DNA from: a virus | Lineage: Duplodnaviria > Caudoviricetes | DNA length: 57,791 nt | Strand: one strand, 5' to 3' | Virus record (IMG/VR): IMGVR_UViG_3300032116_019333 | Span: 1-57,791 of that record | Shown here: positions 17,419 through 34,244 of the stretch, one piece after another | Numbering within the stretch: the stretch's first letter is position 1 | Layout of the letters: each line of letters starts with the position of its first letter | The notes under the pieces: generated by a model | Told to the model about the DNA's origin: nothing | Seen by the model: only the letters and a program-made list of their open reading frames with translations | Database searches by the model: none | Program-made: the position numbers and the translations under genes

Positions 17419-18743
17419 TGTGACGCATCGTTGGCGTTGTCAACGCACCGTTTGTCATGGCGACATGACAAGTGCTTCAGCCGCTCCCGAATCGACCAAC
17501 TCAGCCCGACTGGTTCCCAGCCCTCGGGCGGCATGATCGACCACCATGCCTCCGTCGCTTCCGCGTCCACTACCTCCCGGTAGCTGCGGAATACCTGCTT
17601 TGGAGAGTTGCCAGCCTCCAGAGAGGTTCGGGCGACATCCCCTGTCTCCGCTACCCGGTAGCTGATGAACGAGTGTCTGAGGGCATTCTGACGCCACCCA
17701 CCAGGGATCTGAGCTTTGACGGCGGTATCGCTCAAGGCACCCGATGCATCGGTGATCGTGATGATCGGCCCGGTTTCCTCACGCCACGGGGCGAGCCATG
17801 CCTTGAGGTTGTCGGAGAGCGGAACCAATCGGCGAGCGGCAGTCTTTGCCTTGCGGCCTGCGATCTCGATGTGACCGCGATCCCACTTGATGTCCTGCCA
17901 AGTCAATCGCCCGACCTCCGCAGATCGGATGCCGGCGAACCCTCCGATGGCGATGAGCGGGAGAATCCGGGCATGGGCGGCGAGAAGGAGCCGCTCCATT
18001 TCCTCGGGGGTGAAGATCGAGATTTCCTTGTCGGGCACCTTGAACGAATCGCTCTGTTCCGCCGCCGTTTTCCGGTCGGGGTGGAGGTATCCCTGCTTCT
18101 TGGCGAAACCGAACATGGTGACGACGTTTCGCCGGATGCCATTCTTGCTGACTGGCCCGAGCTTGGTGAGTCCGTCGAGGAACCGGTTGATGTCTGCGGT
18201 CGTCACGTCCGCGATATTGCCTGCGACCACATCGGTGAACCGCTTGAGGTTGTTGGTGGCGTTTCGGACATAGACAATGCTCACGCCCTTCCGCTTCAGC
18301 GACTCGACGAACTCTGCGGCCACTTGGACGTTGCTGCGGACGGCGATCAGGTCGGCACGGTTCGCTGCGTAGAATCGGACGGCATCGGAAAGCGGAACTT
18401 CACCGGCGGTGCGTCTGGCGCTGACCCATTCCTCGATAGCGGCGGCGAGCGTCACGCCAAACTCACCGGCCGCGCGTTCGCAATGCCGGAGGATGTCGAT
18501 GTCGCGGCGGGTCGCCTCGCACACTCCGGTTTCGCCATTGATGAGCCGGACTGTGATCTGCTGGGCGACCATCTTCGCCTCGTCCATAGAGGAGAAGCAG
18601 CGGGTGCGTCGTCGCCCGCCTTCCTGCCATGCGAGAGTGAACTGATCGTAACCATCCTTGCGGTTGATGGTGTAGATCCGGACTTTGGTCGGACCGGTTC
18701 CAACTTCCACGACGGCACTGCGGCGTTTGCGTTTCCGAGGCAT
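17415..18743 (-). CDS. int: Tyrosine integrase (frame is open upstream to ATG 19100)
   Basis: AGIRSAEV (R), KAK (K), LRHSFISY, final Y in VFRSYRE; ATG 18743 has GTTGACT 21 nt upstream. Confidence 0.92.
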   Translation of the reverse strand: MPRKRKRRSAVVEVGTGPTKVRIYTINRKDGYDQFTLAWQEGGRRRTRCFSSMDEAKMVAQQITVRLINGETGVCEATRRDIDILRHCERAAGEFGVTLAAAIEEWVSARRTAGEVPLSDAVRFYAANRADLIAVRSNVQVAAEFVESLKRKGVSIVYVRNATNNLKRFTDVVAGNIADVTTADINRFLDGLTKLGPVSKNGIRRNVVTMFGFAKKQGYLHPDRKTAAEQSDSFKVPDKEISIFTPEEMERLLLAAHARILPLIAIGGFAGIRSAEVGRLTWQDIKWDRGHIEIAGRKAKTAARRLVPLSDNLKAWLAPWREETGPIITITDASGALSDTAVKAQIPGGWRQNALRHSFISYRVAETGDVARTSLEAGNSPKQVFRSYREVVDAEATEAWWSIMPPEGWEPVGLSWSIRERLKHLSCRHDKRCVDNANDASQ

Positions 18744-18766
18744 AGGCCCCGGTTTCCGAGTCAACT

Positions 18767-18997
18767 TGTGTGGAATCTTGTGTGGAAAGCCTGTCGCGGC
18801 TTTCCTTGAATTGCCGCTTTCCTTACTGGTGCAAGGGGTGGCGGGGATCGTCCTAGACGATGGCGGATCGGCAAGGAAACCTGCCGACGGTGCGGTTTTC
18901 TTCGTAATCATGGGTATCTGTGCGTTGGTGGGTTGACCGGGGTGACGCAGGGTGTGCGGTCCTGAACGGTCGTTTTGTGTGGAATCCGTGTGGAATC
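18767..18997. other. Putative attP: two pairs of arm-type repeats flanking a candidate core
   Basis: GTGTGGAA at 18768, 18780, 18977 and 18988; central inverted repeat TCGGCA-N8-TGCCGA at 18868-18887; immediately 5' of int. Confidence 0.6.
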
Positions 18998-19311
18998 CAT
19001 GGATTCTGTCGCGGATTTCGGTAGGATTCGCGCACCGAACAGGTGCCGCCGCTCTCCCGGGAATCCGGTAGCTGGCGTGGCTGATCAGGTTCTCATCCAT
19101 TCGTCACACGTCTGCCAGATCGGTGCCTCCGATCAAGGGCTTTCGGCCTAGGATTCTACTCAAAATAGGATCAAAGCAGATATGCTTGGTAAGCCCTGAG
19201 GTTTGATATTTGCTCATTCCCTCTTGACTTTAGGAATTTCTTTGCATTTCGGCTCGTCTGCCGCGAATAGAGTGTCTAGTATCGGCCTCGTCACGATGAC
19301 GCATTTTACTC

Positions 19312-22300: not shown

Positions 22301-22377
22301 CGTCCGGCCACGATCTCGAACAATTCGCGAAAGCCCTTGGCATCGAACTTACCAACGAGGAGATTTATCAGGAATGA
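19312..22377 (+). CDS. DUF499 ATPase (restriction-like defence system, Gao_RL type)
   Basis: LKQAMGGGKTH Walker A, ILLDE, YPFHP; C-terminal Fn3-like repeats. Confidence 0.88.
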   Translation: MRSIRNACSLQPNALEITVGDQIEQLDEIIRDTETTQYFDKTFITGGMRDLLEKGIARLAGKSNNSIFHLKQAMGGGKTHLMVGFGLLAKNAVDRAKLIGDIPHQNGFNNAKIAAFNGRNRPPHYLWGEIASQLGKESLFRQFWESGTKAPDEKAWLDLFDSDEPILILLDEMPPYFQYYATQSLGQGTIADVVTSAFACMLTAAQKKKNVCVVVSDLSAAYDTGGKLIQRALDDAKQEIGRAEVSITPVNLESDEIYQILRKRLFAKLPDKNEIADIASVYAARLSEAARARSIERGADALANDIESTYPFHPSFKSIVALFKDNEKFKQTRGLMELVSRLLKSVWNTPEDVYLIGAQHFDLGLPEVREKLTEISAMRDVIARDLWDSGLSAHAQVIDLAAGTSYTRQVGVLLLTSSLSTAVDAVKGLTEPELLECLIDPNRKASDFRPAFEALQKAAWYLHKTKEGRHYFSHAENLTKKLETYADKAPQPKVDELIRTRLNEMYRPVTREAYEKVLPLPEIDEAEASIKNSRSLLIISPDGKTPPEAVARFFDSQVNKNNVLVLTGDRSSMADLDKAARHVYAVAKADAEIKADHPQRAELDDKKTQYDQDFQSTVLNVFDKLLFPGRQGTSDLLRSKVLDATYPSNESYNGEKQVIKTLTSDPIKLYTDVAANFDALRARAEQLLFGNQDDVRKTDLIDKSRQSTQMPWLPAKSFDQFITMAFGRGWEDLGNGYITKKPRPKTTKVIVQSESTADDTGTCRLRLESQHAGPAPRIHYAEDGPVSEKSPVLHDNCLTTKALRVQFIAVDPSGSSQTGPPTTWTNDLTLRNRLDEEARTVELFIAPRGAIRYTTDGTEPREGTPYTGPIPIGKEKVDMLVFAECEGLEAKRTFKFPAAGSDDLCIVKDAPAIARSSTHRKLDSSAKAHEGIRLAKEKGITFQNVTIILGSAPKVIQLALTEIPVDAEFIEQTLAQLQPLLDPDAPLVLGFKQLNTPSGHDLEQFAKALGIELTNEEIYQE

Positions 22378-22970
22378 GCATGTTGATTGATTTTGGTGCC
22401 CCTGTCAAATTCGGCACTCACCACTTCTTTGTCGAAATCCCGCCCGGCCCGCACGATGCCGTCTCGATCTTCGAGGACTTCGGCTTCGAGGGCGATGTGA
22501 ACCAACGCGAAAAAACCGAACATCGCGCTCTCGTTGCCCGCGAACTCTGGACCGCCATCCGCGACGAAGCCCGGCGCGATTTCAACCTCCGCCTCAAGGA
22601 GAAAAAACACAAACCCGGCACCTGGAACGCGGGCAAAACCAAGCTCGACCGCTTCCTAGGCAAGGAACTCTGCGTCCTCGCCTGGGCCGCAGAGCACGCC
22701 AGCCCGGAGGAATGCCCCATCCTTTGCCAAAAATGGCTCGCACTCCGCCCCGAGGAACGCTGGTGGCTCTACGCCAAAACCGCCGCCGAAGCTTCTAAGG
22801 CCGATCAAGGCCAGCGCGGCTGGCGCAAGGCTCTTTATTGCGCCCTCTCCGACGCCACCGGCATCACCCTTCGTACCAAGGCCAAGCCCAAGATTCGTGA
22901 AAAAGACAAACCCACCGCCGCACCCGAAGGGAATAGCCTCTTCGACTTCATCGAAAAAGGCGAAATCTAA
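22374..22970 (+). CDS. DUF3780 protein
   Basis: LDRFLGKELCVLAWA, WLALRPEERWWLY, GWRKAL. Confidence 0.88.
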   Translation: MSMLIDFGAPVKFGTHHFFVEIPPGPHDAVSIFEDFGFEGDVNQREKTEHRALVARELWTAIRDEARRDFNLRLKEKKHKPGTWNAGKTKLDRFLGKELCVLAWAAEHASPEECPILCQKWLALRPEERWWLYAKTAAEASKADQGQRGWRKALYCALSDATGITLRTKAKPKIREKDKPTAAPEGNSLFDFIEKGEI

Positions 22971-22994
22971 ATCCATCCTTCCTTCATCCTTCCA

Positions 22995-25900
22995 ATGACT
23001 CCCTTCTCCTGGCGTGACCGTTCCGCTCTCATCGAATCCCTTTTTCCCGTTCAGAAACTCTCCGTCGAGAGCTTCAAGGAGCAAATGGCGGGCTCGGGGA
23101 AGACGTTGACCGCGCTTGGCAGTTATTGGAAGGGACGCAAGCCGCTGGTGCTCAACAAAGCCTGCATTCTCGGTTGCCTTATGCCGACTTCAGACGATCC
23201 GCTGCGCGATTTGGAGGTGTTTGAATTGCTCATGGGCATGGACGACCGCTCGCTGGCTGTGCGCCTTGGCCGCATTAAACCTGATGAGGTGGCCCGCCGC
23301 GTGGGTGGATTATCGACCAGCGAATGGTTCGTGCCGAATGTCGAGGTCGAGCTGCCGGAGTCCACACCCTTTGAGGTTGATACCATTGCCTTCACCAATC
23401 CCAAATCCGGTAAGGCCAAATCGGTGCGCTTGTCCTGGAGGGATGGAGTGAGCGAAGCTGATCGCCTCGCCCTTGAAGTTCACGCCCTGCCGTTCCCCGA
23501 TTTTAAATCCAACGTAAGCTCGGCCAAACGTTGCGAGGAATTGGGTGATGCGCCCCACGCCCACATCTGGGACGAGGTGAATACCCACCTAGGCACACGT
23601 GCCCATAGTTTTGCCGAGTTGGTCGAGCAAATGGGCATCGCCCGCTTCGGCCACCGTCCCAAGGTAGCCGATGTATTTAGTGGTAGCGGTCAAATCCCCT
23701 TCGAGGCGGCCCGTCTCGGTTGTGATGTCTATGCCTCCGACCTCAACCCCATCGCATGCATGTTGACCTGGGGGGCTTTCAACATCATCGGGGCCACCCC
23801 GAAAAAGCGCGCGGAACTGTCGCGCAAGCAAAAGGAACTGGCCACCAAGGTGCAGGCAGAAATCGATGCGCTTGGCGTGGAAGAAGATGGCAAGGGCTGG
23901 CGGGCGAAAGCCTTTCTCTACTGCATCGAGGTCATCTGCCCGGAGTCGGGCTGGAAGGTGCCACTGATTCCTTCATTATACATATCAAAACATTATCGGG
24001 TTATTGCTAAATTACGTCCAGATTTTGATAAAAAACGATATGGTATTGAAATTCTAGATAACCCATCTGACGATGAATTTCTTTCAGCTGCGGTAGGCAC
24101 GGTGCAGGCTGGGGATCTAGTTCATTCACCAGATGGAGTAAACATTTACCGAACCAGCATCAAGTCAATCCGTGGCGATTACAAGCAGGGTAAAGAAAAT
24201 CGCAACAGGCTCCGCATGTGGGAAAAAGAGGATTTTTTTCCTCGGCCGACTGACATTATGCAGGAGCGGCTGTATGCCATCCAATGGATGCGTCGGAAAT
24301 TAGAAGGAACGCAGTGGGATTGCGAATTTCGAGCGGTCACTGACGAAGACCTCGAACGCGAACAAACTGTCATCGACTATGTGGGTGAACATCTGACCGA
24401 ATGGCAGGAAAAAGGCTTTGTGCCCGATATGCGAATCGAGCCAGGATACAATACGGATCAACCTATCCGGGAGCGCGGCTGGACGCACTGGCATCACCTT
24501 TTCAACCCGCGGCAGCTATTAGTAAATTGCTTCATTAACCGAGTTGCTTCTAGCATCCCTGAATTTGCTGTGATGCTCCCCGGTATCTTGAATCTTCAAT
24601 CAAAACTATGTGCATGGCATAATGACGGGAGAAAAGGAGGGTGTCAAAATGCATTCTCAAACCAAGCACTAAACACCCTACTGAATTACGGCGCGCGGGG
24701 ATCACAGGATTTGGTTCATTATCTTTTCAAGGTCTCCAAGTTTCTTGAACTGCCGGTCTCAACTGGAATAAGTTGCCTGCCCGCAGAGCTTGTGTCTCAA
24801 GGAAACGACCTCTTCATCACCGATCCGCCCTATGGCGACGCCGTGAAATATGAAGAGATCACGGAATTTTTCATTGCCTGGCTGCGAAAGAATCCGCCGA
24901 AGGAATTTGCGGATTGGACCTGGGACAGCCGCCGAGCGCTGGCAATCAAGGGCGAGGACGACGATTTCCGGCGGGGCATGATCCGCGCCTACCGGCGCAC
25001 GCGCGAGTTGATGCCGGATAACGGCATGCAGGTGGTCATGTTCACCCACCAGAGCGGTAGCATCTGGGCGGACATGGCCAACATCATCTGGGCCAGCGGC
25101 CTGCAAGTGACGGCTGCCTGGTATGTAGTCACCGAGACGGATTCAGCCCTGCGGCAGGGGGCAAATGTGACTGGTACCATCATGCTCGTCCTACGAAAGC
25201 GTATCGGCCAAGCTGCCAGTTTTCGCGATGATCTTGGCTGGGAGATTGAAGCGGCAGTGAAACAACAGATTGAGGCATTGACGGGTCTCGACCAGAAAGT
25301 GCGCGACAAAGGATCAGAAGGCCTCTACACCGATGCGGATCTGCAAATGGCCGGCTACGCCGCTGCACTCAAGGTACTCACCGCCTATTCTCACATTGAT
25401 GGCAAGGACATGGTTGTTGAGGCAGAGGTCCCTAAGCTCGCTGGTCGCAAATCGTTTGTCGAAGAGCTAATCGACTTTGCCGTGCAGACTGCCGTGCAAT
25501 TCCTCGTGCCCATTGGATTCGATAAGAGCGAGTGGCAGAAACTCAGCGCCATCGAGCGCTTTTACCTCAAAATGGCCGAGATGGAGGCAATGGGAGAGAA
25601 GTCTCTCGACAACTACCAGAACTTCTCAAAAGCCTTCAAAGTGAAGAACTTCAACGCCGTAATGAGCGACAGCAGCAAGGCAAACCACGCCCGGCTCAAG
25701 CTATCTACCGAGTTGAAAACCGCCCATATTAGTGGTGAGGGCGAACTCCCCGGGACACCGCTGCGCGCCCTGCTCTACGCCCTCTTCGAATTGTCGAAAG
25801 GCATTGAGGTGGACGACGTGCTCAACCACCTGGGCCAGACTCACCCACATTACCTGCGCGATAAAAAACTCATCGCAAAAATTGCTGACTACCTGGCCAA

Positions 25901-26000
25901 CAAGCGTGCCGCGCTAAAAGCTACCAAAACCTTTGACCCCCAACCCGAAGCCCAAAACGCACGCATTCTAGCAGAGGCGATTCGCAATCAGAAGCTGTAA
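22995..26000 (+). CDS. DUF1156 amino-DNA methyltransferase
   Basis: GKTLTALGSYWKGRKPL, ADVFSGSGQIP (motif I), TDPPYGD (motif IV). Confidence 0.9.
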   Translation: MTPFSWRDRSALIESLFPVQKLSVESFKEQMAGSGKTLTALGSYWKGRKPLVLNKACILGCLMPTSDDPLRDLEVFELLMGMDDRSLAVRLGRIKPDEVARRVGGLSTSEWFVPNVEVELPESTPFEVDTIAFTNPKSGKAKSVRLSWRDGVSEADRLALEVHALPFPDFKSNVSSAKRCEELGDAPHAHIWDEVNTHLGTRAHSFAELVEQMGIARFGHRPKVADVFSGSGQIPFEAARLGCDVYASDLNPIACMLTWGAFNIIGATPKKRAELSRKQKELATKVQAEIDALGVEEDGKGWRAKAFLYCIEVICPESGWKVPLIPSLYISKHYRVIAKLRPDFDKKRYGIEILDNPSDDEFLSAAVGTVQAGDLVHSPDGVNIYRTSIKSIRGDYKQGKENRNRLRMWEKEDFFPRPTDIMQERLYAIQWMRRKLEGTQWDCEFRAVTDEDLEREQTVIDYVGEHLTEWQEKGFVPDMRIEPGYNTDQPIRERGWTHWHHLFNPRQLLVNCFINRVASSIPEFAVMLPGILNLQSKLCAWHNDGRKGGCQNAFSNQALNTLLNYGARGSQDLVHYLFKVSKFLELPVSTGISCLPAELVSQGNDLFITDPPYGDAVKYEEITEFFIAWLRKNPPKEFADWTWDSRRALAIKGEDDDFRRGMIRAYRRTRELMPDNGMQVVMFTHQSGSIWADMANIIWASGLQVTAAWYVVTETDSALRQGANVTGTIMLVLRKRIGQAASFRDDLGWEIEAAVKQQIEALTGLDQKVRDKGSEGLYTDADLQMAGYAAALKVLTAYSHIDGKDMVVEAEVPKLAGRKSFVEELIDFAVQTAVQFLVPIGFDKSEWQKLSAIERFYLKMAEMEAMGEKSLDNYQNFSKAFKVKNFNAVMSDSSKANHARLKLSTELKTAHISGEGELPGTPLRALLYALFELSKGIEVDDVLNHLGQTHPHYLRDKKLIAKIADYLANKRAALKATKTFDPQPEAQNARILAEAIRNQKL

Positions 26001-26008
26001 TTACGAGA

Positions 26009-28738
26009 ATGGCCATCCGCAGACATTCCTCCCGAAGTGCGAAGCTCGACACCGAGTTTCTGGCAAAGACTTTGCAGGGTGCCAGCAAATATCTACGTAT
26101 CGCGGGCTATTTCCGCAGCTCGATCTTTGAGCTGGTCGGCGAGGAAATCGCACGGATTCCGGAGGTGAAAATCATCTGCAATTCGGAACTCGATTTGAAG
26201 GACTTCCAGGTCGCCAGCGGACGTGAAATTGCCCTCAAGGAGCGCTGGAATCAGGTGGATGTTGGCGCGGAAGCGGTGCTCCATCAGGAGCGGTATACTC
26301 GACTCGACGCCCTCTTGAAAGCGGGCAATGTCGAGATCCGCGTGGTTCCACGAGAGCGGCTGTTTCTCCACGGTAAGGCCGGCTCTGTCCACTATCCAGA
26401 CGGCCGCCGATGCGCCTTCGTTGGATCGGTGAACGAAACCCGGCGCGCCTTCGCCCATAACTATGAATTGATCTGGGAAGACGACGATGAGGCTGCCGCC
26501 GCATGGGTGGAAGCCGAGTTCGACGCCCTGTGGAAAGATGGGGTGCCACTTCCCGATGCGATTCTCAAGGAAATCGAACGTGTGGCAAACCGGCAGGAGG
26601 TGACAGTGGAAGCGCTTTCCCCAAAAGCGGTGGCAGCGGCGGCACTGGCGGAGGCCCCGATCTACCGGGGCGGCGAACAACTCCAGCCATGGCAGCGCTC
26701 ATTTGTGACCCTGTTCCTCGATCACCGCGAAACCTACGGCAGCGCCCGGCTTCTATTGGCAGATGAGGTAGGCGTCGGCAAGACGCTGTCGATGGCAGCA
26801 AGTGCCTTGGTGAGCACGCTGCTGGGTGACGGCCCTGCGCTGATACTCGCGCCTTCGACTCTGACTGCCCAATGGCAAATCGAACTGATGGATAAACTCG
26901 GCATCCCGAGCGCGGTGTGGTCGTCCCAAGCCAAGGTCTGGCTTGGCCCGGAAGGACAGCAGCTATCGCCCAAGGGGAATCCGGCAACGATCAAAAATTG
27001 TCCCTACCAGATCGCCATTGTTTCCACCGGCCTTATAACTCATCAACGGGACGGCGGGAATTTTATTAAGGAGGCAGCCGCCTTGCTGCAACGTCGCTTC
27101 GGTTGCGTGATCCTTGACGAGGCGCACAAGGCAAGAGTCAGCGGTGGCATCGGCAACGAAGTGCGTGAGCCAAACAATTTGCTCGCCTTCATGACGGCAA
27201 TCGCCCGCCAAACCCGCCATCTCATTCTCGGCACAGCGACACCGATCCAAACCGAAGTCGGCGAGTTGTGGGAACTGATGAAAATCCTCGGCAGTGGCGC
27301 GGATTTCGTAATCGGCGATTCCTTTTCGCCATGGCGTGATATGGATGAGGCTATCCCCCTCATCACCGGCAATCAAAAGCCCCGCACTGCTGCCGAGGCC
27401 TGGAACTGGCTACGCAACCCCTTGCCCCCGGCGGGCGAAGATCTGCTTTTCCAAAACTTACGGGATGGCTTGGGCATCCGACCGGATCACAATGGGAGTC
27501 CCCACCGTTTTGAGGATTTGGACTACCTGTTGCAGGAAGTTCATCTGCCGGAGGCGCTGGCCGATGGATTTTTCCAGCGACATAATCCGCTGCTCCGCCA
27601 TGTGGTATTGCGCAAGCGCAGCGAACTTGAAGCAGCTGGGTTACTGGAGAAAGTGGGCGTCAAGACCCATCCGTTACGCGAACAACGTGACCTGTATCAG
27701 AATCGATTCGTCACACTCGGCATTCACACAAACCGGCCGTTTGAGGTGGCCTACGAGCAGGCCGAAGAGTTTTCGCGACTGCTCCAAAAGCGCACTAAGT
27801 CCGGTGGATTCATGAAATCTCTGATGCTCCAGCGGATTTGCTCCAGCTTCGCATCCGGGCGCGGGACGGCCGAGAAAATGCTTAAACGCTCGCTGCCTGA
27901 CGACAGTCGCGATCAGGAACGCTTGCAAGAGGAGAAGGAACACCTCCTGAGCGGAATGAGCGCCGCTGAGATTGCGTGTTTGAAGGAAATCGTAACCCAG
28001 CTCTCACGGCCTGAGGCGGTGGATTCCAAACTCGAAACTGTGCGCTGGTTTCTCACCGAATTTCGCTCCGAGGGAAAATCTTGGCTTGAGCATGGATGCA
28101 TCATTTTCAGCCAGTATTTTGACACCACCCAGTGGTTTGCAAAGGAGTTGTCGGCTTCGTTGCCAGATGAAGTCGTTGCGGTTTATGCAGGAGCAGGGAA
28201 GAGCGGGCTTTTTCGCAACGGGCAATTCAGCACCGTCGGACGCGAAACGATCAAGGCCGCCGTTAAGGAACGGGAACTACGATTGCTCGTCGCCACCGAT
28301 GCCGCATGCGAAGGACTAAACCTCCAGACCCTCGGCACCCTGATCAATGTGGATCTTCCCTGGAACCCATCCCGCCTCGAACAACGGCTTGGCCGCATCA
28401 AGCGCTTCGGCCAAGCCCGCAAGTTCGTGGACATGCTCAACTTGGTCTATGCCGGAACACAAGATGAAAAGGTTTATAATGTTCTCTCAGAACGTCTCAA
28501 GGACACCTACGACATCTTCGGTAGCATCCCAGAAACAATCCAGGATGAGTGGATCGAAGACGAACAGTTGCTTCGCCTGAAAATGGACGAATACATACAC
28601 GAGCGCAACAAAGCGCAAAATGCGTTTTCCGTAAGATACAGATCTAGCGTTGATCCCGAAGCGCACAAGTGGGAATACTGCTCCCAGGTTTTATCAAGAA
28701 GAGATGTGGGATCACGACTAAGTGCGCCTTGGAAATAG
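26009..28738 (+). CDS. PLD-nuclease plus SNF2 helicase
   Basis: LHGKAG...GSVN, LADEVGVGKT, DEAH, EGLNLQ, PWNPSRLEQRLGRIKR. Confidence 0.9.
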   Translation: MAIRRHSSRSAKLDTEFLAKTLQGASKYLRIAGYFRSSIFELVGEEIARIPEVKIICNSELDLKDFQVASGREIALKERWNQVDVGAEAVLHQERYTRLDALLKAGNVEIRVVPRERLFLHGKAGSVHYPDGRRCAFVGSVNETRRAFAHNYELIWEDDDEAAAAWVEAEFDALWKDGVPLPDAILKEIERVANRQEVTVEALSPKAVAAAALAEAPIYRGGEQLQPWQRSFVTLFLDHRETYGSARLLLADEVGVGKTLSMAASALVSTLLGDGPALILAPSTLTAQWQIELMDKLGIPSAVWSSQAKVWLGPEGQQLSPKGNPATIKNCPYQIAIVSTGLITHQRDGGNFIKEAAALLQRRFGCVILDEAHKARVSGGIGNEVREPNNLLAFMTAIARQTRHLILGTATPIQTEVGELWELMKILGSGADFVIGDSFSPWRDMDEAIPLITGNQKPRTAAEAWNWLRNPLPPAGEDLLFQNLRDGLGIRPDHNGSPHRFEDLDYLLQEVHLPEALADGFFQRHNPLLRHVVLRKRSELEAAGLLEKVGVKTHPLREQRDLYQNRFVTLGIHTNRPFEVAYEQAEEFSRLLQKRTKSGGFMKSLMLQRICSSFASGRGTAEKMLKRSLPDDSRDQERLQEEKEHLLSGMSAAEIACLKEIVTQLSRPEAVDSKLETVRWFLTEFRSEGKSWLEHGCIIFSQYFDTTQWFAKELSASLPDEVVAVYAGAGKSGLFRNGQFSTVGRETIKAAVKERELRLLVATDAACEGLNLQTLGTLINVDLPWNPSRLEQRLGRIKRFGQARKFVDMLNLVYAGTQDEKVYNVLSERLKDTYDIFGSIPETIQDEWIEDEQLLRLKMDEYIHERNKAQNAFSVRYRSSVDPEAHKWEYCSQVLSRRDVGSRLSAPWK

Positions 28739-28756: not shown

Positions 28757-29791
28757 TCAATCTAATCGCGGCTTGGGAAGCGGATCGCGTACTAACTCAT
28801 ATCGAAGTGCTGAACCTTTACCATGACTCTTCACATCTTCCGACACAAGCAGATCTTCAATTTCTTCCCCGACAAGCCTACCAGTAATGCCTAAACTTTT
28901 AGCTAATAGGGTTCTCAGCTGATTGTTCTTCTCGCGGAGCTCTCTCAAGATTTTCAACTGTAATGGGCTGAAAGTCTGAGAAGCATCCTCATCGGGCGTC
29001 ATGCCTGCGACTCTGATCTGGATCTTCGGACCAAGTGAATATCCAGTATCATCCGTAACAACGATGTCATTGCCAACCGCATGGATGCTATGGTGTTTGA
29101 GTAACGCTTCACAGGATTTATCTCGAATTTGCCGCACGGCATCACCAGCCGCTTTCTCCCCATTTTCGAAATGACATTCGTTCGCAAGTTGAACGCCGCC
29201 TAGTGTGATCTTACCGCCCGCCTCCTTCTTGGCTCGGAGGCGTTCCAATACAGACCGCATTTGCGATTTTCGCCCTGTGAGTTTTCGCCCATTTATTTCA
29301 ACTCGGTCTTCGAAAAACTCTATGACAGCACCGGAAAATGGATGCACTGTCGGTTCACTTGCTTGCCCTCTTGATTCGTTATCCTTTGGAGGCCGCTTGA
29401 CCAGAGCCTCCTTGATCTTCCTTTCAAGTGGGTGATCTTCGCCAAACGGCTTTCCAACAAAGTCATCAGCTCCCTCTTTCATCAATTCCACTCCAACATG
29501 GTAGGATTCAAGATCGTTTGCAGTCATGATGATAACAGTCGTTACAGGGTGACCGAGCGGACCTCGGATCTTGTGAAGCAGGTTGCGACCATACTGTTTA
29601 TCCGCCTGCCCACCAAACCTTAACGGAATTGCCAAATCTAAAAGAATGTAATCGTAAGATTGCCGACGAAGAAACTCCTCAGCCTCTTCCTGTGAAGAAG
29701 CTGAATCAAACGTGTGATCAAGCGACTCAAGCTTCTCTCCAACAATTTGAAGGATCTGTTCATGGTCATCAATGACAAGTGCGTGTGGCAT
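28757..29791 (-). CDS. Response regulator with receiver and wHTH output domains
   Basis: LVIDD, ILLDLAIP (phospho-Asp), IMTA, FVGKPF; OmpR-like wing (IVVTDDTGYSL) plus a second C-terminal HTH. Confidence 0.85.
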   Translation of the reverse strand: MPHALVIDDHEQILQIVGEKLESLDHTFDSASSQEEAEEFLRRQSYDYILLDLAIPLRFGGQADKQYGRNLLHKIRGPLGHPVTTVIIMTANDLESYHVGVELMKEGADDFVGKPFGEDHPLERKIKEALVKRPPKDNESRGQASEPTVHPFSGAVIEFFEDRVEINGRKLTGRKSQMRSVLERLRAKKEAGGKITLGGVQLANECHFENGEKAAGDAVRQIRDKSCEALLKHHSIHAVGNDIVVTDDTGYSLGPKIQIRVAGMTPDEDASQTFSPLQLKILRELREKNNQLRTLLAKSLGITGRLVGEEIEDLLVSEDVKSHGKGSALRYELVRDPLPKPRLD

Positions 29792-29796
29792 AGTGG

Positions 29797-30903
29797 CTAT
29801 ATTGGGATTTGGATTCTCGCGGTAAGACCCGTGCTACCGTTGGGTTCTATTCTAAGGGTGCCTCCGTTTTTTTCGATATGACGACGTGCGATCGGTAAGC
29901 CGAAGCCACTTCCTGAGGGTTTTGAGCTACCTCCGGGAATGAATTCCTGAAGCTTCTTAATTTCGGATTCCTCCAAAGGTCCGCCCATATCGCAGATCAA
30001 CATCTCGAAGACACCTTCGGTAACATGCGCGGAAATAAATATCGTAGCATCTACAAAACCCGACTTCTTCTCGTGTACTTCAATAGCATTCTTTATTAGG
30101 TTTGTGATTGCCATGACAAATAGTGGACGGGAAACCGGAAATAGCAGATCGGCGTCTATTTCAATCTCGGACTTCACCAATTCGCAAAGGCCACCGCGAG
30201 CCTCGATATTCTCCCTGGCGGTTCTTTCAGCGTCAAAGACCATGGATGCAACGTTCTCTTCGCTTTTTTTAGCCTCTACGTCTCTGGCAAAATTACTAAT
30301 ATCTATTGTTAGAGACTCCATGTCCTCGATGCTTGAATTGATCCGCTTGATCTCTTCTTCGGAAGGAATCCCCCCTGCGGCAGTACTTTCGCCCATTCTG
30401 CGAACGACTTCTTTCAATGGGGTCAGGATTGTTTTGAAGTCGTGTACTACAGAGCGGAGATACTCATCGCTCTGGCGGTTCGCTAGATCGATTGCCATCC
30501 TTGTCGCATCCACCCCAAATCGAATCCGGATACCTTCAAGAATCTTCTGGAGTCCCCTGTGGCGTGATCTGGCACCGCCTCTGGAGTCTGGCATTCGGCG
30601 TGCCAGGGCGATAGCGGCCATTCGAGAAACAAACGAGTTCTGATCGGCCGCTAACCTCGGGGCAAGCCTACGAAAGAGCTTTTCTGGAAAATTCGGCAGG
30701 CTTTCAGCAAACACCATTCTAACTTCCCACTTGGGATCGCTAGATAGAATACTGACTAGGGCAAATGAATCATCTGTGGGCCTTGCCGTCATCATATCAC
30801 GGCATGCAATTTCCGCCAACATCCGGCGATCAGTCCACGGTTCGACGTCAGCCTGCCTCTCCAGGACATCACGAGTCAGTTTTTTGATTTCATCGGGTTC
30901 CAT
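29797..30903 (-). CDS. Cytoplasmic histidine kinase with HEAT-like N-terminus
   Basis: H-box VVHDFKTILTPL, N-box NLIKNAIE, G1 DMGG, G2 GSGFGLPIA; DPKWEVR/DQNSFVS HEAT-like repeats; no TM segment. Confidence 0.85.
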   Translation of the reverse strand: MEPDEIKKLTRDVLERQADVEPWTDRRMLAEIACRDMMTARPTDDSFALVSILSSDPKWEVRMVFAESLPNFPEKLFRRLAPRLAADQNSFVSRMAAIALARRMPDSRGGARSRHRGLQKILEGIRIRFGVDATRMAIDLANRQSDEYLRSVVHDFKTILTPLKEVVRRMGESTAAGGIPSEEEIKRINSSIEDMESLTIDISNFARDVEAKKSEENVASMVFDAERTARENIEARGGLCELVKSEIEIDADLLFPVSRPLFVMAITNLIKNAIEVHEKKSGFVDATIFISAHVTEGVFEMLICDMGGPLEESEIKKLQEFIPGGSSKPSGSGFGLPIARRHIEKNGGTLRIEPNGSTGLTARIQIPI

Positions 30904-30916
30904 CGAATGTGTGCTG

Positions 30917-32809
30917 TCAGTATTTGTATCTTTCCTTCCTTAGCTTGAAGGCCTCTTCCCCCCCTTCAAGAAGAGTCACAATATCATCTTTGCATGTATC
31001 CACGTCACCAATGCGAACTACCGCACCCTTCGTCCGACTCGAATCCATTACGAATACCCTGGCGGCCTCCCCGAGAACAGGAATGTTTGGGTTGTGCGTG
31101 GCGAAAATCATCTGTCGGCCTTTTGTCGCCCTTCTAATGGAACGTACGACTGTTCGATAGACATAACTATTGTCCAGATTGTCTTCTGGCTGATCGACGA
31201 CTAGCGGGTTGATACTATCGAAAAGAATGATCGGAAGAATGGCAGTGCATTTCTGCCCCGTGGACAGAGATCCTGACTCACGATATTCTCCACGTTCTTT
31301 CAGTGCTACGTATGGAGCGTCTTCAAGCGCGACAGTTTGAAGGGCGAAGAGGACATCGATCCGTGCCAGCGCGGGAAATATCTCTTCCGATTGATTTTCG
31401 TTGAGGCCGCAAGCCTTACTGAGTTTCTCGCGGTCTCCACTCTGGATAAGCTCAACCAATCTCTGCGGGGGCACAGAATCAGACACCTTTTTAGCCACCT
31501 GGATGCGCCGGGTTGACGTGTTTTTCAACAACTCTTCCAAATGTGCACGGTAAGAGCTTCTGTCGCCAAATTGTTCAATAGTTACTCTGATTTCGGGGCC
31601 GAGTGCACTGTTCAGCTCTTCTGCTATGCCGAGTCGAATATTGAACCGCGTATCAAATAATTCAGATAACTCAGCTAATTGAGAGTCACGCTTGGTTCTC
31701 ATTTCGTCCACGGTTTTTTTAAGGTCTAAGAGCTCTCTCTTTTTGAAAAGCAGTTCATTACGGCGCTTTTCGAATCCACTCCTCTCATTGGATCGGATCT
31801 GGACCTCTTTATGTTTTTCCATCAACTGCCTATACAAGGCTTCTTGCTCAGCGTGTAAATTCTCAAGAACCCCTTTGTCTGTCGTGATCCTCTCCCATCC
31901 CTTGCCAAGATTATCGAGTATTGAACGGATCTGCTCTTCAAGTGTAGCTGAAATCTGATTCAAGTATTGAATCATAGGCTCGATACACTGTTGGTTTGGG
32001 CCATGAAGAAGTTCATCATTAAACAGCATGTTTAATTCACTCTGCATCCGACCGGATAGTGACTTGGCCGTTTTTCCAGTGTCTTGAATAATGACTTTAA
32101 TCGCATCGACTGCCCGCATTTCGCGATCCCGAAGCGAGCGATGCGTTATTGCTATGTTGATTGCATCAGCGTTAGGTCCTTGGGCAACTCTCATCCCTTT
32201 GAGCTTTTCCTCAAGAACGGGCAATTCTTTGATTTCCTCCTCAAGATTTTGAATCTTCGACATTAGAGGAAGAATTGCTGTAGACGCATCATTTATGGAT
32301 TCTTGAAGAATTGAAATATCCCACTCGATTGCGCCAATCTCTCCGTTACTGAACTTGTCTAGCAGGTCCAGCTTGTAGTGGGCCGTTTCGGCAATGCTTT
32401 CCATCTGATTTTGGCTAAGTATGTCGGACCGGAAGAGATAGCCGCCCAGCACTTTGACCCCATTGATCAACTTCCCTTGGGCATCTTGAGCGACTGGTTG
32501 TTCCCCAGCACTTCTTGAGATTACATAGGTTGCCCCGTCTTTAGTTTCGACGGTCACTTCGACTCTGCCACCGCCTAAATTCGCTTCGATGATGTTCTCG
32601 ACTCTCTTTCGTAAAGGGTCTCCTTGTCGCCCAGGCATGGCGTCAATAGCGAAGCGGGTCAACTCAATGACTGTTGTCTTGCCGGCTCCGCGTGGCCCGA
32701 TGATGCAATTAAGCCCATCAAGAAATTCGATGTCTAACCCGTCGAGAAAGCCTCCGGTGATTCGAAGTCTCTTGATAAGGTGATGCGGTCGATTGGTGTT
32801 GTCGTTCAT
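30917..32809 (-). CDS. SMC/Rad50-like coiled-coil ABC ATPase (TrlF/Ppl-like ATPase without PHP domain)
   Basis: GPRGAGKT, long coiled coil, LSTGQ signature, VVDQPEDNLD, ATHNPNIPV. Confidence 0.85.
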   Translation of the reverse strand: MNDNTNRPHHLIKRLRITGGFLDGLDIEFLDGLNCIIGPRGAGKTTVIELTRFAIDAMPGRQGDPLRKRVENIIEANLGGGRVEVTVETKDGATYVISRSAGEQPVAQDAQGKLINGVKVLGGYLFRSDILSQNQMESIAETAHYKLDLLDKFSNGEIGAIEWDISILQESINDASTAILPLMSKIQNLEEEIKELPVLEEKLKGMRVAQGPNADAINIAITHRSLRDREMRAVDAIKVIIQDTGKTAKSLSGRMQSELNMLFNDELLHGPNQQCIEPMIQYLNQISATLEEQIRSILDNLGKGWERITTDKGVLENLHAEQEALYRQLMEKHKEVQIRSNERSGFEKRRNELLFKKRELLDLKKTVDEMRTKRDSQLAELSELFDTRFNIRLGIAEELNSALGPEIRVTIEQFGDRSSYRAHLEELLKNTSTRRIQVAKKVSDSVPPQRLVELIQSGDREKLSKACGLNENQSEEIFPALARIDVLFALQTVALEDAPYVALKERGEYRESGSLSTGQKCTAILPIILFDSINPLVVDQPEDNLDNSYVYRTVVRSIRRATKGRQMIFATHNPNIPVLGEAARVFVMDSSRTKGAVVRIGDVDTCKDDIVTLLEGGEEAFKLRKERYKY

Positions 32810-32862
32810 CGCGGTGCAACTCTATGCGCAAGTCTGCGTAAATGCAGCATTTAGATGCGATT

Positions 32863-33010
32863 TTCCCGTATGGATTGTTTTTTCCCATACGGGAATCGGA
32901 TGGCGTCCAATGCCTCCGCGTGGCCTCCCATACGGACAGGCCGCATGGGAATCTGGACCCCATGAGGCCTTTATTTTTCGAAATATTTGGGCGGTTGGGC
33001 TCCCATACGA
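32863..33010. promoter_or_regulatory. Cluster of CCATACG(G)-type operator-like repeats in a divergent intergenic region
   Basis: Perfect 11-bp inverted repeat 32863-73/32885-95; 10-bp inverted repeat with one mismatch 32926-35/32941-50; fifth copy 33001-10. Confidence 0.7.
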
Positions 33011-33138
33011 ACCCTCCTAAACCGCCCGTCTGCTGGTGTTGTGAAACGAATTTTCACCCCACGCTTTTCGGGTCGCTCGGATGTTCCGGGCTTCCGGCTC
33101 CCGAACCGATTTCGGTCAATCGAAAATAAATTACCATC

Positions 33139-33492
33139 ATGATTAACGAAAAAATGCATTTGGAGCCGCAAAGCTGCGGCAATTATCGCGGCCTTCCCGC
33201 CGCGTGCAAGCAACTCCTGCGCATTATGCAGGAAAACCCGTTTAGCCGAATCGAGAATCTGTCCGTAATCAACGGCCAACCTCAGTTCGAGCAGACGACC
33301 AAAGTCATCGCCGAGCACAAGTTCGGGGCGAATGACGGCCCGCGCCGCGAGGCCGAACTCACTGACTTCGTTTTGAAGAAGGAGCACATTGAGCTTTTCA
33401 AGCAGCTCGAAGTCGTTGGGAGCGGAGTGATTCTCGCGCTCGAAGTCCGTGGTGGCCTGCCGTTCCGCATGCAAAGCGAAGTGGCCGCATAA
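33139..33492 (+). CDS. Hypothetical protein, first gene of the rightward early operon
   Basis: 117-aa ORF divergent from the ATPase operon, upstream of the sigma-like gene. Confidence 0.6.
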   Translation: MINEKMHLEPQSCGNYRGLPAACKQLLRIMQENPFSRIENLSVINGQPQFEQTTKVIAEHKFGANDGPRREAELTDFVLKKEHIELFKQLEVVGSGVILALEVRGGLPFRMQSEVAA

Positions 33493-33593: not shown

Positions 33594-33671
33594 CATTCCC
33601 GGCAACATCCGCCCTGACGCCAACCGCGCCACCCCAACCGACGCCCTTTGACACCCGGCTGCCAAGGCCGG

Positions 33672-34244
33672 ATGAAAACTAACAGCTACGCGGGTATCCA
33701 CCCGCACATCGTCGCCGTCATCGCACGGAAAGCACAAAAACTCATCGGACGCTATGGCCTCACGGCCTCCGACGTCCATGACATCGAGCAGGATCTACAC
33801 TTGAAGGTGTGGGCCTCGCTGCCGGGGTTGAACACGACCGTCTTCGAGGCGTCCGTCAACCAGATCGTAAATCACGAGATCATCGACTTGATCCGCAAAC
33901 GCGAGCGCGAATGCCGCGACTGGCGTCTCATCGCATTTTCAACAGATGACCACGTTGCGGGGTGCGACTGTGAAGACGAGCAGGAGAGCTACTCGGACAT
34001 CCTCGACGAGGATCTTCTTGTGGGTCTCGGATACTCGCCGTCTTGGCAGGCTCGCCGATGGGAGCAGGCTGACTTCGACGATGGCATGGCTCGCCTTCCT
34101 GAGGATCTTCGTGACTTGGCCGAAACCCTCGACGCATGCGATGGCAACCTCTCGGCGGCCGCCCGCATGCTCGGTGTGTCGCGCAAGAAAGCTCGCATCA
34201 TGCTCGCTCGTCTGCAGCAGGCGATGGCATGGCTGCGTGAATAG
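33672..34244 (+). CDS. ECF/sigma70-like factor
   Basis: Region-2-like DVHDIEQDLHLKVW...IIDLIRK; region-4 RLPEDLR...LSAAARMLGVSRKK. Confidence 0.7.
   Translation: MKTNSYAGIHPHIVAVIARKAQKLIGRYGLTASDVHDIEQDLHLKVWASLPGLNTTVFEASVNQIVNHEIIDLIRKRERECRDWRLIAFSTDDHVAGCDCEDEQESYSDILDEDLLVGLGYSPSWQARRWEQADFDDGMARLPEDLRDLAETLDACDGNLSAAARMLGVSRKKARIMLARLQQAMAWLRE

What the first reader, a model, noticed from the sequence alone, without database searches (positions are those of the whole stretch)
28757..33492. ABC-ATPase / HEAT-histidine kinase / response regulator operon where the lysis-lysogeny switch should be
Seen: a leftward three-gene operon (Rad50/SMC-like ATPase, a soluble kinase whose only input region is HEAT-like repeats, and a wHTH regulator) is divergent from the early sigma/replication operon. 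I found no CI/Cro-like repressor or S24 peptidase in the genome. Established: HEAT repeats mediate protein-protein contacts, and coiled-coil ABC ATPases often sense DNA ends or phage products. Inference: the ATPase senses DNA damage or an invader and signals through the kinase, so a phosphorelay would control prophage induction without RecA/CI cleavage. The alternative is a new ATPase-triggered two-component defence module, since the operon is AT-richer and converges on the Gao_RL-type operon.
Basis: partly seen in the sequence, partly recalled or inferred. Interest (0 to 1): 0.85.

Follow-up and report, generated by a model that had tools for sequence, protein, structure and literature searches.

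The report
ATPase-driven two-component cassette in phage switch slot
A temperate phage carries, where its relatives keep a repressor/protease lysogeny switch, a widespread and apparently undescribed three-gene signalling cassette in which a DNA-clamp-like ATPase seems to feed a sensor-less histidine kinase and a DNA-binding regulator.

Summary
On the minus strand, 13 and 5 nt apart, lie a 630-aa ABC ATPase (Ppl/TrlF-related but below both cut-offs), a soluble 368-aa histidine kinase with a HEAT-like N-terminus, and a 344-aa REC + OmpR-type winged helix + extra wHTH regulator.

The trio is a self-contained mobile cassette. 575 of 600 pattern hits in species genomes encode ATPase relatives. The kinase follows in 75 of the 80 loci kept, and a REC gene is third in 82 of 84. 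Flanks vary.

A complex model puts the ATPase on the kinase's HEAT domain (score 0.71, best control 0.00).

Five CCGTATGGG-type boxes fill the 329-bp gap to the early operon, and related loci carry different boxes that track regulator similarity.

In sister phages the same slot holds an XRE repressor plus ImmA-like protease or other modules. HMMs find no conventional repressor here.

I favour a lysogeny/induction control module (0.45) over an accessory defence sensor (0.30).

The scan noted this cassette before on other genomes. Eight literature searches found no description.

The parts
30917..32809 (-). ABC ATPase with a long helical insert (630 aa, P0001). Walker A is GPRGAGKT at residues 38-45, the signature LSTGQK at 515-520, and Walker B/D-loop DQPEDNLD at 539-546. 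It is the first gene of the cassette and the predicted input module.
   Evidence: Pfam AAA_23 and AAA_21 above cut-off. NCBIfam TrlF_fam_ATP 253 bits (cut-off 350), aligned to profile positions 290-944 of 944; Ppl 96.8 bits (cut-off 1000). 241 relatives, all about 630 aa. Invariant motifs in a 22-sequence alignment.
29797..30903 (-). Soluble histidine kinase (368 aa, P0002). It has an N-terminal HEAT-like repeat domain (about 1-135), a DHp helix with H154, and an HATPase_c domain at 263-367.
   Evidence: H154, N272, D305, G333 and G335 invariant in 69 sequences. Predicted to dock on ATPase residues 379-450, 466 and 498 through its residues 22-24, 57-67 and 88-95.
28757..29791 (-). Response regulator (344 aa, P0003): REC (D52 region), an OmpR/PhoB-type winged helix, and an extra C-terminal wHTH.
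   Evidence: REC 54.4 bits. (D9, D52 and K114 nearly invariant). (pLDDT 91.4). (VanR, RpaA, CosR, DrrD, KdpE and PhoP as top full-length matches). In the family, 82 of 84 third genes carry REC and many carry wHTH families.
32810..33138 (.). Divergent control region, 329 bp. Five CCGTATGGG/TCCCATACGG-type boxes lie at 32866-32874, 32884-32892, 32927-32935, 32941-32949 and 33002-33010. Two pairs form inverted repeats. The roughly 75 bp nearest to 33139 are conserved in a sister phage.
   Evidence: At one mismatch or fewer the window has 8 matches, 4 of them within 128 bp here; shuffles give a mean of 2.97. The sister phage L089 has different boxes but a conserved proximal segment.
33139..33492 (+). 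First early-operon gene (117 aa, P0004), a small family of unknown function.
   Evidence: No Pfam, NCBIfam, PHROG or PADLOC match. 86% identical in L089. Profile search finds it in 9 of 134 ATPase-anchored loci. Alignment.
33648..34244 (+). ECF-like sigma factor gene of the early operon (context).
   Evidence: Sigma70_r2 and HTH_8; TIGR02937 below cut-off; phrog_1740.
19312..28738 (+). Gao_RL-type restriction-like defence operon: DUF499 ATPase, DUF3780, DUF1156 methyltransferase-like and PLD-SNF2 helicase. It converges on the regulator gene (context, separate unit).
   Evidence: NCBIfam NF042962, NF042963 and NF042964 score 1417.9, 1292.3 and 1194.1 bits, all above cut-off. Co-occurs with the trio in only 1-3 of 84 other loci.
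17415..19100 (-). Tyrosine integrase (context: marks the phage as temperate).
   Evidence: Phage_integrase; XerA/XerC/XerD-type matches below cut-off.

Best explanation
The three genes are one self-contained, horizontally mobile signalling cassette. A Rad50/SMC-like ABC ATPase, related to the ATPase part of Ppl and TrlF but without their N-terminal extension, docks through a conserved region after its helical insert onto the HEAT-like N-terminal domain of a soluble histidine kinase that has no other sensor. The ATPase thereby serves as the kinase's input. The kinase (H154) phosphorylates an OmpR-type response regulator (D52) that carries a second wHTH. The regulator binds the five CCGTATGGG-type boxes in the 329-bp region between the cassette and the phage early operon.

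In this phage the cassette sits in the slot that sister phages fill with an XRE repressor plus ImmA-type protease, and no conventional repressor is detectable. It is therefore most likely the phage's lysogeny/induction control module: a DNA-state signal read by the ATPase is turned into control of its own promoter and of the early (33139 gene, sigma, replication) promoter.

Control could be negative (the regulator acts as repressor) or positive (regulator~P switches early genes on, so no repressor is needed). I lean slightly to positive control.

Shown: gene anatomy, cassette conservation, the box array and its variation between loci, and slot equivalence.
Modelled: ATPase-kinase contact.
Inferred: phosphotransfer, box binding by the regulator, the nature of the signal, and the effect on early genes.
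For: 1. Unit: spacers of 13 and 5 nt. The kinase lies directly downstream of the ATPase in 75 of 80 genome loci and 31 of 54 viral loci; most of the rest end at the contig edge or are distant or partial ATPases. The third gene has REC in 82 of 84.

2. Catalytic residues are conserved: ATPase motifs; kinase H154, N272, D305, G333 and G335 invariant; REC D9, D52 and K114 nearly invariant.

3. Contact: complex model score 0.71, 0.71 and 0.70 against a best of 3 controls of 0.00. The tool's mark was reached by 58 of 80 solved complexes and 2 of 110 mismatched pairs. Runs agree in at least 76% of contacts and partner pLDDT is at least 76. The interface residues (ATPase 379-450; kinase 57-67 and 88-95) include or adjoin invariant positions D386, F389, Q413 and P448, and W59, R62, D87 and V92.

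4. Output is DNA binding: OmpR-type fold plus extra wHTH. Among the 84 third genes, the most frequent wHTH families are HVO_A0261_N in 18, HTH_DeoR in 14 and HTH_11 in 12.

5. Operators: five boxes in 150 bp. Elsewhere in the window there are only four scattered one-mismatch hits. Arrays of 4-7 boxes at -27 to -200 of the ATPase start recur in related loci with different motifs. Regulators with the same motif type share 35-42% C-terminal identity against 17-26% to the others. In L089 the 33139 gene is 86% identical and the proximal roughly 75 bp are conserved, but the boxes and the trio differ (ATPase 41% identical), so the boxes travel with the cassette.

6. Slot: of 23 sister loci with at least 2.3 kb visible upstream of the AAA_24 early gene, 4 have XRE + M78, 3 the trio, 5 a DUF6932 module, 7 a 383-aa gene and 4 other content. 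No locus shows both trio and XRE/M78 in the visible stretch.

7. No S24, M78 or HTH_31 match in the complete record; HTH_3 is sub-threshold only.

8. In phage-linked loci from several phyla the trio lies between recombinase genes and replication genes. It is either divergent from the early operon or co-directional and upstream of sigma, AAA_24 and helicase.
Against: 1. The cassette is far wider than this phage type. With single-sequence markers, about two thirds of the 60 genome loci showed no phage or mobile-element marker within 10 kb. That search has low sensitivity, so this is unknown rather than absent.

2. Nearest-flank Pfam families are heterogeneous: 102 families among 136 ORFs, including TPR and sigma-54 activators.

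3. The nearest upstream ORF is co-directional in 32 of 57 genome loci by crude ORF calling. A divergent partner is therefore not obligatory.

4. Box arrays exceeding all 20 shuffles were seen in only 16 of 113 upstream regions. These are mostly the Verrucomicrobial-phage clade, and two are 12-bp tandem repeats.

5. The closest named relatives of the ATPase are anti-phage or plasmid proteins (Ppl, TrlF; PADLOC Ppl 6.6e-20, mad3 8.6e-16).

6. A sister cassette on plasmids has a REC-TCAD9/APH kinase-like output and sits among VapBC, AbiEii and integrase genes, which looks like a conflict system.

7. GC is 0.48 against 0.58-0.62 for the neighbours, and the cassette abuts Gao_RL, as imported cargo would.

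8. A close relative (G001, early genes 75-87% identical) has no ATPase.

9. No sigma-70-like promoter was predicted in the intergenic region, so box-to-promoter geometry is unknown.

10. HMM searches cannot exclude an unconventional repressor among the phage's many unannotated small genes.
Confidence: 0.45

Rival explanations
1. Accessory invader-sensing (defence or superinfection-exclusion) cassette carried as prophage cargo. The ATPase detects foreign DNA or a phage protein. The phosphorelay changes transcription of its own operon only, or of genes of the incoming element. The boxes are merely autoregulatory sites. The phage's true lysogeny control lies elsewhere.
For: The ATPase is nearest to Ppl and TrlF, with PADLOC defence ATPase hits. 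The cassette lies between the integrase and the early genes next to Gao_RL, and the close relative G001 has a type I R-M operon in the same interval. Its low GC suggests import. Flanks elsewhere include serine recombinases, WYL regulators, HsdM, C5 methylases, restriction endonuclease domains and AAA_21. The plasmid sister cassette has a TCAD9 kinase-like output between toxin-antitoxin and Abi genes. The trio is present in only 4 of 80 relatives anchored on the 42154 gene. There is a published precedent for a two-component pair inside a defence system: Ambrosia (bioRxiv 10.1101/2025.09.30.679545, passages read).
Against: No effector gene is conserved with the trio; the largest flank cluster is in 19 of 84 loci. 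Within this subfamily the output is always a DNA-binding regulator where it can be classified. The cassette occupies exactly the slot of the XRE/ImmA module in sister phages and is never seen beside it. No other repressor candidate was found. In one set of phage loci it lies upstream of and co-directional with the early operon, an odd place for cargo.
Confidence: 0.3
2. Dedicated regulator of the neighbouring Gao_RL restriction-like operon. The two-component pair would switch the restriction system on when the ATPase senses infection, as proposed for Ambrosia.
For: The two units are adjacent with an 18-nt gap. A few other loci have DUF499, DUF1156 or PLD-helicase genes or methylases nearby. 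For Ambrosia, two-component control of R-M-like genes is the authors' proposed working model (passages).
Against: The two units are convergent. No box lies upstream of 19312; the only hit in that operon is a single one-mismatch match inside the DUF499 gene at 20345. Gao_RL-type genes accompany the trio in at most 3 of 84 other loci. The sister phage L089 has the trio at the same place without tblastn matches to the Gao_RL genes in the 20.6 kb held.
Confidence: 0.05
3. A generic mobile-element housekeeping sensor unrelated to the lysis-lysogeny choice. It might couple replication, partition or DNA-repair state to expression of a few element genes, or regulate host genes (lysogenic conversion).
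For: The cassette has a wide phyletic spread and heterogeneous flanks. It occurs on plasmids in a sister form. The ATPase is SMC/Rad50-like.
Against: The boxes are confined to the cassette's own control region in this phage. There is positional equivalence with the repressor module.
Confidence: 0.15

Closest known systems
Ppl (Gao_Ppl) single-gene anti-phage protein, and the NCBIfam TrlF (NF045780) and Spaf_1101 (NF045781) AAA-like ATPases
   Same: Same ABC-ATPase core with a helical insert. The TrlF profile matches residues 7-629 (8.7e-75). The Ppl and Spaf_1101 profiles match best at the C-terminal lobe. Listeria plasmid TrlF proteins align at 27% identity over 98% of the query.
   Different: Scores are below every curated cut-off (253 vs 350; 148.7 vs 475; 96.8 vs 1000). 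The match starts at TrlF profile position 290, so the roughly 270-290-residue N-terminal part is absent. That part is a PHP domain in Ppl according to a passage in 10.1101/2025.09.30.679545. In the Listeria TrlF it had no Pfam match at E 0.001 or better. Those proteins stand alone, whereas this one is always followed by a kinase and a regulator.
Classical two-component systems of the OmpR/PhoB class
   Same: HisKA-type H-box, N, G1 and G2 boxes. REC with a conserved Asp and Lys. REC plus winged-helix fold.
   Different: The kinase is soluble and has no PAS, HAMP, GAF or membrane sensor. Its only extra domain is HEAT-like and is predicted to hold an ABC ATPase. The regulator has an additional wHTH. 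The unit is mobile and phage-borne.
ImmR/ImmA-type (XRE repressor + M78 protease) and CI/LexA-type (S24) prophage switches
   Same: Same genomic slot next to the early operon in sister phages. A multi-site operator array in the divergent region.
   Different: No XRE, M78 or S24 domain. Signal transfer would be by phosphorylation rather than proteolysis, which is inference.
Ambrosia (R-M genes plus histidine kinase and REC-wHTH) and Detocs (TPR kinase, REC buffer, REC-PNP effector) defence systems
   Same: A two-component pair used inside a phage-conflict context. Ambrosia's regulator also has a wHTH (10.1101/2025.09.30.679545, passages).
   Different: No methylase, HNH or PNP effector is conserved with the trio. 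No Detocs model appears among the PADLOC matches listed (for the ATPase only the best 25 of 32 were shown). The input here is a separate ABC ATPase, not a TPR or kinase-borne sensor.
Plasmid sister cassette: ATPase + ~300-aa HATPase_c protein + REC-TCAD9/APH
   Same: Same three-gene order with overlapping or abutting genes. The ATPase is 26-29% identical over 98-100% of its length.
   Different: The kinase is shorter, and no HEAT-like region was seen in the two scanned. The output domain is kinase-like TCAD9/APH instead of DNA-binding. The setting is plasmids of Proteobacteria.

Membership tests
Ppl (NF042955 / PADLOC Ppl) | Full-length match above the curated cut-off (1000 bits) | tested here: not met
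   96.8 bits, with the best stretch only at residues 506-627. PADLOC Ppl 68.8 bits, at residues 508-627.
Ppl (NF042955 / PADLOC Ppl) | N-terminal PHP nuclease-type domain fused to the ATPase | tested here: not met
   The protein is 630 aa with Walker A at residues 38-45. No PHP family appears among the Pfam matches. All 120 listed relatives (of 241) are 587-695 aa. The 'longer' length class was not searched.
TrlF family ATPase (NF045780) | Score at or above 350 bits over the 944-position profile | tested here: not met
   253.1 bits, aligned to profile positions 290-944 only.
SMC/Rad50 proper | SMC_N above cut-off; hinge or zinc hook | tested here: not met
   SMC_N 28.8 bits against a cut-off of 40. 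Rad50 and SMC equivalogs score 22-28 bits against cut-offs of 567-1000. The only PDB sequence match is an Smc head, at E 2.5e-4 over residues 10-64. Hinge and hook were not examined.
Two-component system (histidine kinase + response regulator) | Phospho-accepting His in the DHp helix and N/G1/G2 boxes in the kinase | tested here: met
   H154, N272, D305, G333 and G335 are invariant in 69 sequences. HATPase_c is above cut-off.
Two-component system (histidine kinase + response regulator) | Receiver domain with conserved acidic pocket and Lys | tested here: met
   REC 54.4 bits. D9, D52 and K114 are conserved in at least 90% of 84 sequences.
Two-component system (histidine kinase + response regulator) | Phosphotransfer from kinase to regulator | not testable with these tools
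   Needs an in vitro assay.
OmpR/PhoB-class regulator | REC followed by a winged-helix effector domain | tested here: inconclusive
   The best Foldseek matches are full-length OmpR/PhoB regulators over about 260 columns, but TM scores are low because domain orientation differs. Pfam Trans_reg_C was not detected. NCBIfam PhoB-type matches reach residue 178, far below cut-off.
CI/LexA-type or ImmR/ImmA-type prophage switch | XRE/CI HTH repressor with S24 autoprotease, or with a partner M78 protease | tested here: not met
   No S24, M78 or HTH_31 match in the record. HTH_3 reaches only 15 and 14.5 bits (cut-off 23).
Detocs | TPR kinase, REC buffer protein and REC-PNP effector | tested here: not met
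   No Detocs model appears among the PADLOC matches listed for the three proteins (for the ATPase only the best 25 of 32 were shown). The third gene ends in wHTH domains. The definition of Detocs is recalled, not read.
Ambrosia | XRE regulator, N6 methylase, kinase, REC-wHTH and HNH nuclease in one cluster | tested here: not met
   Only the kinase and REC-wHTH have counterparts. No methylase or HNH gene is conserved with the trio. Definition taken from passages.
Gao_RL (neighbouring operon, not the trio) | DUF499, DUF3780, DUF1156 and PLD-helicase genes above the NCBIfam anti-phage cut-offs | tested here: met
   1417.9 vs 1200, 1292.3 vs 1000 and 1194.1 vs 1100 bits. DUF3780 238 bits.

The most novel reading that the evidence does not exclude
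Temperate phages of several bacterial phyla use a repressor-free, positively controlled switch. A Rad50-like ATPase reads the state of DNA (ends, breaks or replication intermediates, on the incoming genome or in the damaged lysogen). Through a docked sensor-less histidine kinase and an OmpR-type regulator, it turns the early sigma/replication operon on. This would be a RecA- and protease-independent route to the lysis-lysogeny decision and to induction. The same ATPase-kinase chassis would be re-used with other outputs, such as TCAD9 kinase-like domains, in plasmid conflict systems.
Probability: 0.3. Interest if true: 0.85.

Novelty: new variant of a known kind. Interest (0 to 1): 0.72.

Why it matters
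If the reading is right, it adds a new input class to two-component signalling: an SMC/Rad50-like ABC ATPase acting as sensor for a soluble kinase.

It would also add a new logic for prophage control, a phosphorelay in place of CI/LexA cleavage or ImmA proteolysis.

The cassette is not confined to one lineage. At least 575 species-genome hits were found in phyla that are poorly studied for phage biology (Planctomycetota, Verrucomicrobiota, Myxococcota, Acidobacteriota).

Even under the defence reading it would be an undescribed sensing module related to Ppl. The module has swappable outputs, DNA-binding here and kinase-like TCAD9 on plasmids.

Because it is compact (about 4 kb including its control region) and self-contained, it is directly testable in a heterologous host.

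Tried and rejected
Neighbourhoods were obtained instead with the search for related loci, the genome search and the fetch from genomes.
- Literature. The 'TrlF' searches gave only unrelated hits. Searches combining prophage, kinase, regulator, ABC ATPase and defence terms, Ppl/PHP, phage-encoded kinase and lysogeny, TCAD9, SMC-like kinase anti-phage and Detocs found no description of this cassette. The ABC-ATPase classification paper (PMC7544218, cited in PMC12839542) is not held, so it may describe the family. Supplements were not opened.
- The helicase at 34342 as an anchor for sister phages found only the two loci already known. I then used the gene at 42154.
- The metagenome scan with the single protein returned 8 loci at 28-82% identity, none of them the 84-96% relatives seen. 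It was not analysed further.
- Conserved fourth gene: rejected. The largest flank cluster is in 19 of 84 loci.
- The 33139 family as an obligatory partner: rejected. It is present in 9 of 134 loci.
- I first took L220:250-591 of the relative G001 for the 33139 homologue and took its two unknown genes as divergent. The alignment (11% identity) and the ORF strands show otherwise. It is an HTH_17 gene, and it and the 424- and 397-aa genes lie on the same strand as the early operon, upstream of the true homologue.
- The sigma-70 promoter scan found nothing in 32810-33138. This is uninformative for this host group.
- No RNA holder was listed for the stretch. The four DNA runs laid hold the same phage in short contigs and show no variant lacking the trio. 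Nothing follows about expression or cassette swaps.
- The PDB sequence search with the ATPase profile gave one weak Smc head match.
- The flank tally uses single-sequence phmmer and misses distant relatives. It found the serine recombinase in 3 loci, where clustering found 19.
- ORF calling in scripts takes the longest ORF first and is crude. Rows dropped: the Pfam flank tally used 136 of the 167 nearest flanking ORFs. I left out the four longest and all ORFs from loci after L065 to fit the residue limit. The third-gene set leaves out loci whose third ORF ran off the contig, and the 104-aa ORF picked in L083.

Full report
**What is there**

The window is a complete virus record of 57,791 bases. 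On the minus strand three ORFs follow each other with 13-nt and 5-nt spacers: 30917-32809 (630 aa), 29797-30903 (368 aa) and 28757-29791 (344 aa).

The first is an ABC ATPase with a long helical insert. AAA_23 and AAA_21 are above their Pfam cut-offs and SMC_N is below.
- Its best named relatives are the NCBIfam TrlF family (253 bits against a cut-off of 350, aligned to profile positions 290-944 of 944), Spaf_1101 and the anti-phage protein Ppl (96.8 bits against 1000).
- PADLOC gives Ppl and mad3 as best hits, and otherwise P-loop-only matches.
- It is therefore related to these proteins, lacks their N-terminal part, and is a member of none.

The second is a soluble histidine kinase. HATPase_c is above cut-off, while HisKA and HEAT_2 are below.
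- Across 69 homologues H154, N272, D305, G333 and G335 are invariant, and two HEAT-like repeats are conserved.

The third is a response regulator.
- Its model (mean pLDDT 91.4) shows REC, an OmpR-type winged helix and a further wHTH.
- Full-length OmpR/PhoB regulators are the best structural matches.

**Surroundings**

Upstream and divergent lie a 117-aa gene of unknown family (33139-33492), an ECF-like sigma gene, a helicase, a DUF2800 nuclease, PolA and a primase. Downstream and convergent lies a complete Gao_RL-type operon, then a tyrosine integrase. The trio is AT-richer than its neighbours (GC 0.48-0.49 against 0.57-0.62).

**The trio is a conserved, self-contained cassette**

- A protein search gave 241 relatives of the ATPase, all about 630 aa, mostly from Planctomycetota and Verrucomicrobiota.
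The best 80 loci also include Myxococcota, Acidobacteriota, Alphaproteobacteria, Gemmatimonadota and others. A scan of viral contigs gave 54 loci.
- By tblastn the kinase lies directly after the ATPase in 75 of 80 genome loci and 31 of 54 viral loci. The remainder mostly end at the contig edge, or are partial or 27-33% identical ATPases.
- The next ORF carries a receiver domain in 82 of 84 cases. Where classifiable, it also carries wHTH families.
- No fourth gene is conserved. Among 931 flanking ORFs of 84 loci, the largest cluster (large serine recombinases) is in 19 loci. It is followed by ECF-like sigma factors (16), ResIII helicases (13), DUF2924 (10), WYL regulators (10), AAA_24 (8), C5 methylases (6) and HsdM (6).
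- The nearest flanking ORFs of the genome loci hit 102 different Pfam families (136 of 167 ORFs scanned).
- The family of the 33139 gene occurs in only 9 of 134 loci.

**ATPase and kinase**

A complex model of the ATPase with kinase residues 1-140, both given as alignments, scored 0.71, 0.71 and 0.70. The best of three controls scored 0.00. The tool's mark was reached by 58 of 80 solved complexes and 2 of 110 mismatched pairs. The runs agree in at least 76% of contacts, and partner pLDDT is at least 76.

The interface joins ATPase residues 379-450, 466 and 498 (the conserved region after the helical insert) to kinase residues 22-24, 57-67 and 88-95 (the two HEAT-like motifs). Both sides include or adjoin invariant residues: D386, F389, Q413 and P448 on the ATPase, and W59, R62, D87 and V92 on the kinase.

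This is a model, not a measurement. It fits the strict gene linkage and the absence of any other sensor in the kinase.

**Control region**

The 329-bp gap holds five CCGTATGGG-type boxes within 150 bp. Two pairs form inverted repeats.
- At one mismatch or fewer the whole window has 8 matches, 4 of them here. Shuffles give a mean of 2.97.
- The other four are scattered singles, so the putative regulon is this region alone. In particular there is no box upstream of Gao_RL.
- Arrays of 4-7 boxes at -27 to -200 of the ATPase start recur in related loci, with other motifs: CCGCATGGG, CCGTATGGT, CCGGTATCA, CCCTATGT, CCCACATAG and TCCAAGCTTGGA.
- Regulators of the CCGTATGG group share 35-42% identity in the DNA-binding part, against 17-26% to the others.
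- In sister phage L089 the early genes are 72-95% identical, the 33139 gene is 86% identical and the adjacent roughly 75 bp are conserved. The ATPase is only 41% identical, the kinase 31%, the regulator is unrecognisable by tblastn, and the boxes differ.
- The boxes therefore travel with the cassette and most likely bind its regulator.
- Outside this clade the crude statistic found arrays rarely: 16 of 113 upstream regions exceed all 20 shuffles, and two of these are tandem repeats.

**Is it the switch?**

I anchored sister phages on an independent gene (42154) and obtained 80 viral loci. Only 4 of them carry the trio.

Among the 23 loci in which at least 2.3 kb upstream of the AAA_24 early gene is visible, the slot holds:
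- an XRE repressor plus an M78 ImmA-like protease in 4,
- the trio in 3,
- a module with DUF6932 in 5,
- a 383-aa gene, with small unclassified ORFs, in 7,
- something else in 4.

The trio and XRE/M78 were never seen together.

The window has no S24, M78 or HTH_31 match, and only sub-threshold HTH_3 matches.

In phage-linked loci from several phyla the trio lies between recombinase and replication genes. It is either divergent from the early operon, as here, or upstream of and co-directional with sigma, AAA_24 and helicase. The second layout suggests activation rather than repression.

All this favours a lysogeny/induction control module.

**Against it**

- A close relative (G001, early genes 75-87% identical) has no ATPase. 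Between its early operon and integrase lie an HTH_17 gene, two unknown genes and a type I R-M operon.
- Many genome loci show no recognisable phage marker, although the search was insensitive.
- The nearest upstream ORF is co-directional in 32 of 57 genome loci.
- The ATPase's named relatives are anti-phage.
- On plasmids a sister cassette (ATPase, ~300-aa HATPase_c protein, REC-TCAD9/APH) sits among VapBC, AbiEii and integrase genes in 4 of 6 regions inspected.
- A published defence system, Ambrosia, also embeds a kinase and a REC-wHTH regulator (passages).

**Verdict**

- I put 0.45 on a phage lysogeny/induction control module driven by an ATPase-gated phosphorelay.
- I put 0.30 on an accessory invader-sensing cassette with autoregulation only, 0.05 on a regulator of Gao_RL, and 0.15 on other element housekeeping.
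- The signal sensed is unknown.
- Earlier notes of this scan describe the same cassette on at least six other genomes, with the same two readings. They are not independent evidence.
- Eight searches of the held literature found no description. One likely relevant paper on ABC ATPases is not held.

Noticed in passing
window 19312-28738: A complete four-gene Gao_RL-type restriction-like operon (DUF499, DUF3780, DUF1156, PLD-SNF2 helicase) carried by a phage. All three NCBIfam anti-phage models score above cut-off.
   Followed up: partly
window 16235-17164 and 17305-17385: A DprA (DNA_processg_A, 172 bits) gene sits in the phage just before the integrase. A 74-aa open frame with a weak HTH_3 match lies downstream of the integrase and may be an excisionase.
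   Followed up: no
L220 (G001) 580-650: In the close relative that lacks the trio, two direct copies of GGACAAACCGTGTC lie in the short gap upstream of its HTH_17 gene.
   Followed up: no
L024 11866-15564: In one Phycisphaerae locus the kinase matches in two pieces about 2.6 kb apart (11881-12669 and 15322-15564). This suggests an insertion inside the kinase gene.
   Followed up: no
L060 and L078, 300 nt upstream of the ATPase: Ten copies of a 12-nt-period repeat (GCAAGCCAG-type and CTTGGGATC-type) lie directly upstream of the cassette in two genome loci.
   Followed up: no
L145, L151, L170, L171, L190 (slot next to AAA_24): A recurrent three-gene leftward module occupies the same slot in five sister phages: a 206-278-aa unknown, DUF6932 of about 155 aa, and a 355-aa unknown. 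Its function is unknown.
   Followed up: partly
L221, L222, L224, L225 (plasmids): A sister cassette with a REC-TCAD9/APH kinase-like third gene occurs on Leclercia, Phaeobacter, Vibrio and Caballeronia plasmids. It sits beside VapBC pairs, AbiEii or integrases.
   Followed up: partly
window 17001-37000: Short contigs of four public metagenome runs from four coded studies (two recorded as freshwater, one as lake water, one as fungus metagenome) cover this stretch, mostly at 99% or more. They include pieces bridging the Gao_RL/regulator junction (28107-28997).
   Followed up: no
window 45807-46640 and 47831-48532: An Amidoligase_2 gene on the minus strand and a DUF2786/DUF7168 gene. DUF2786 also lies near the TrlF gene on a Listeria plasmid.
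   Followed up: no
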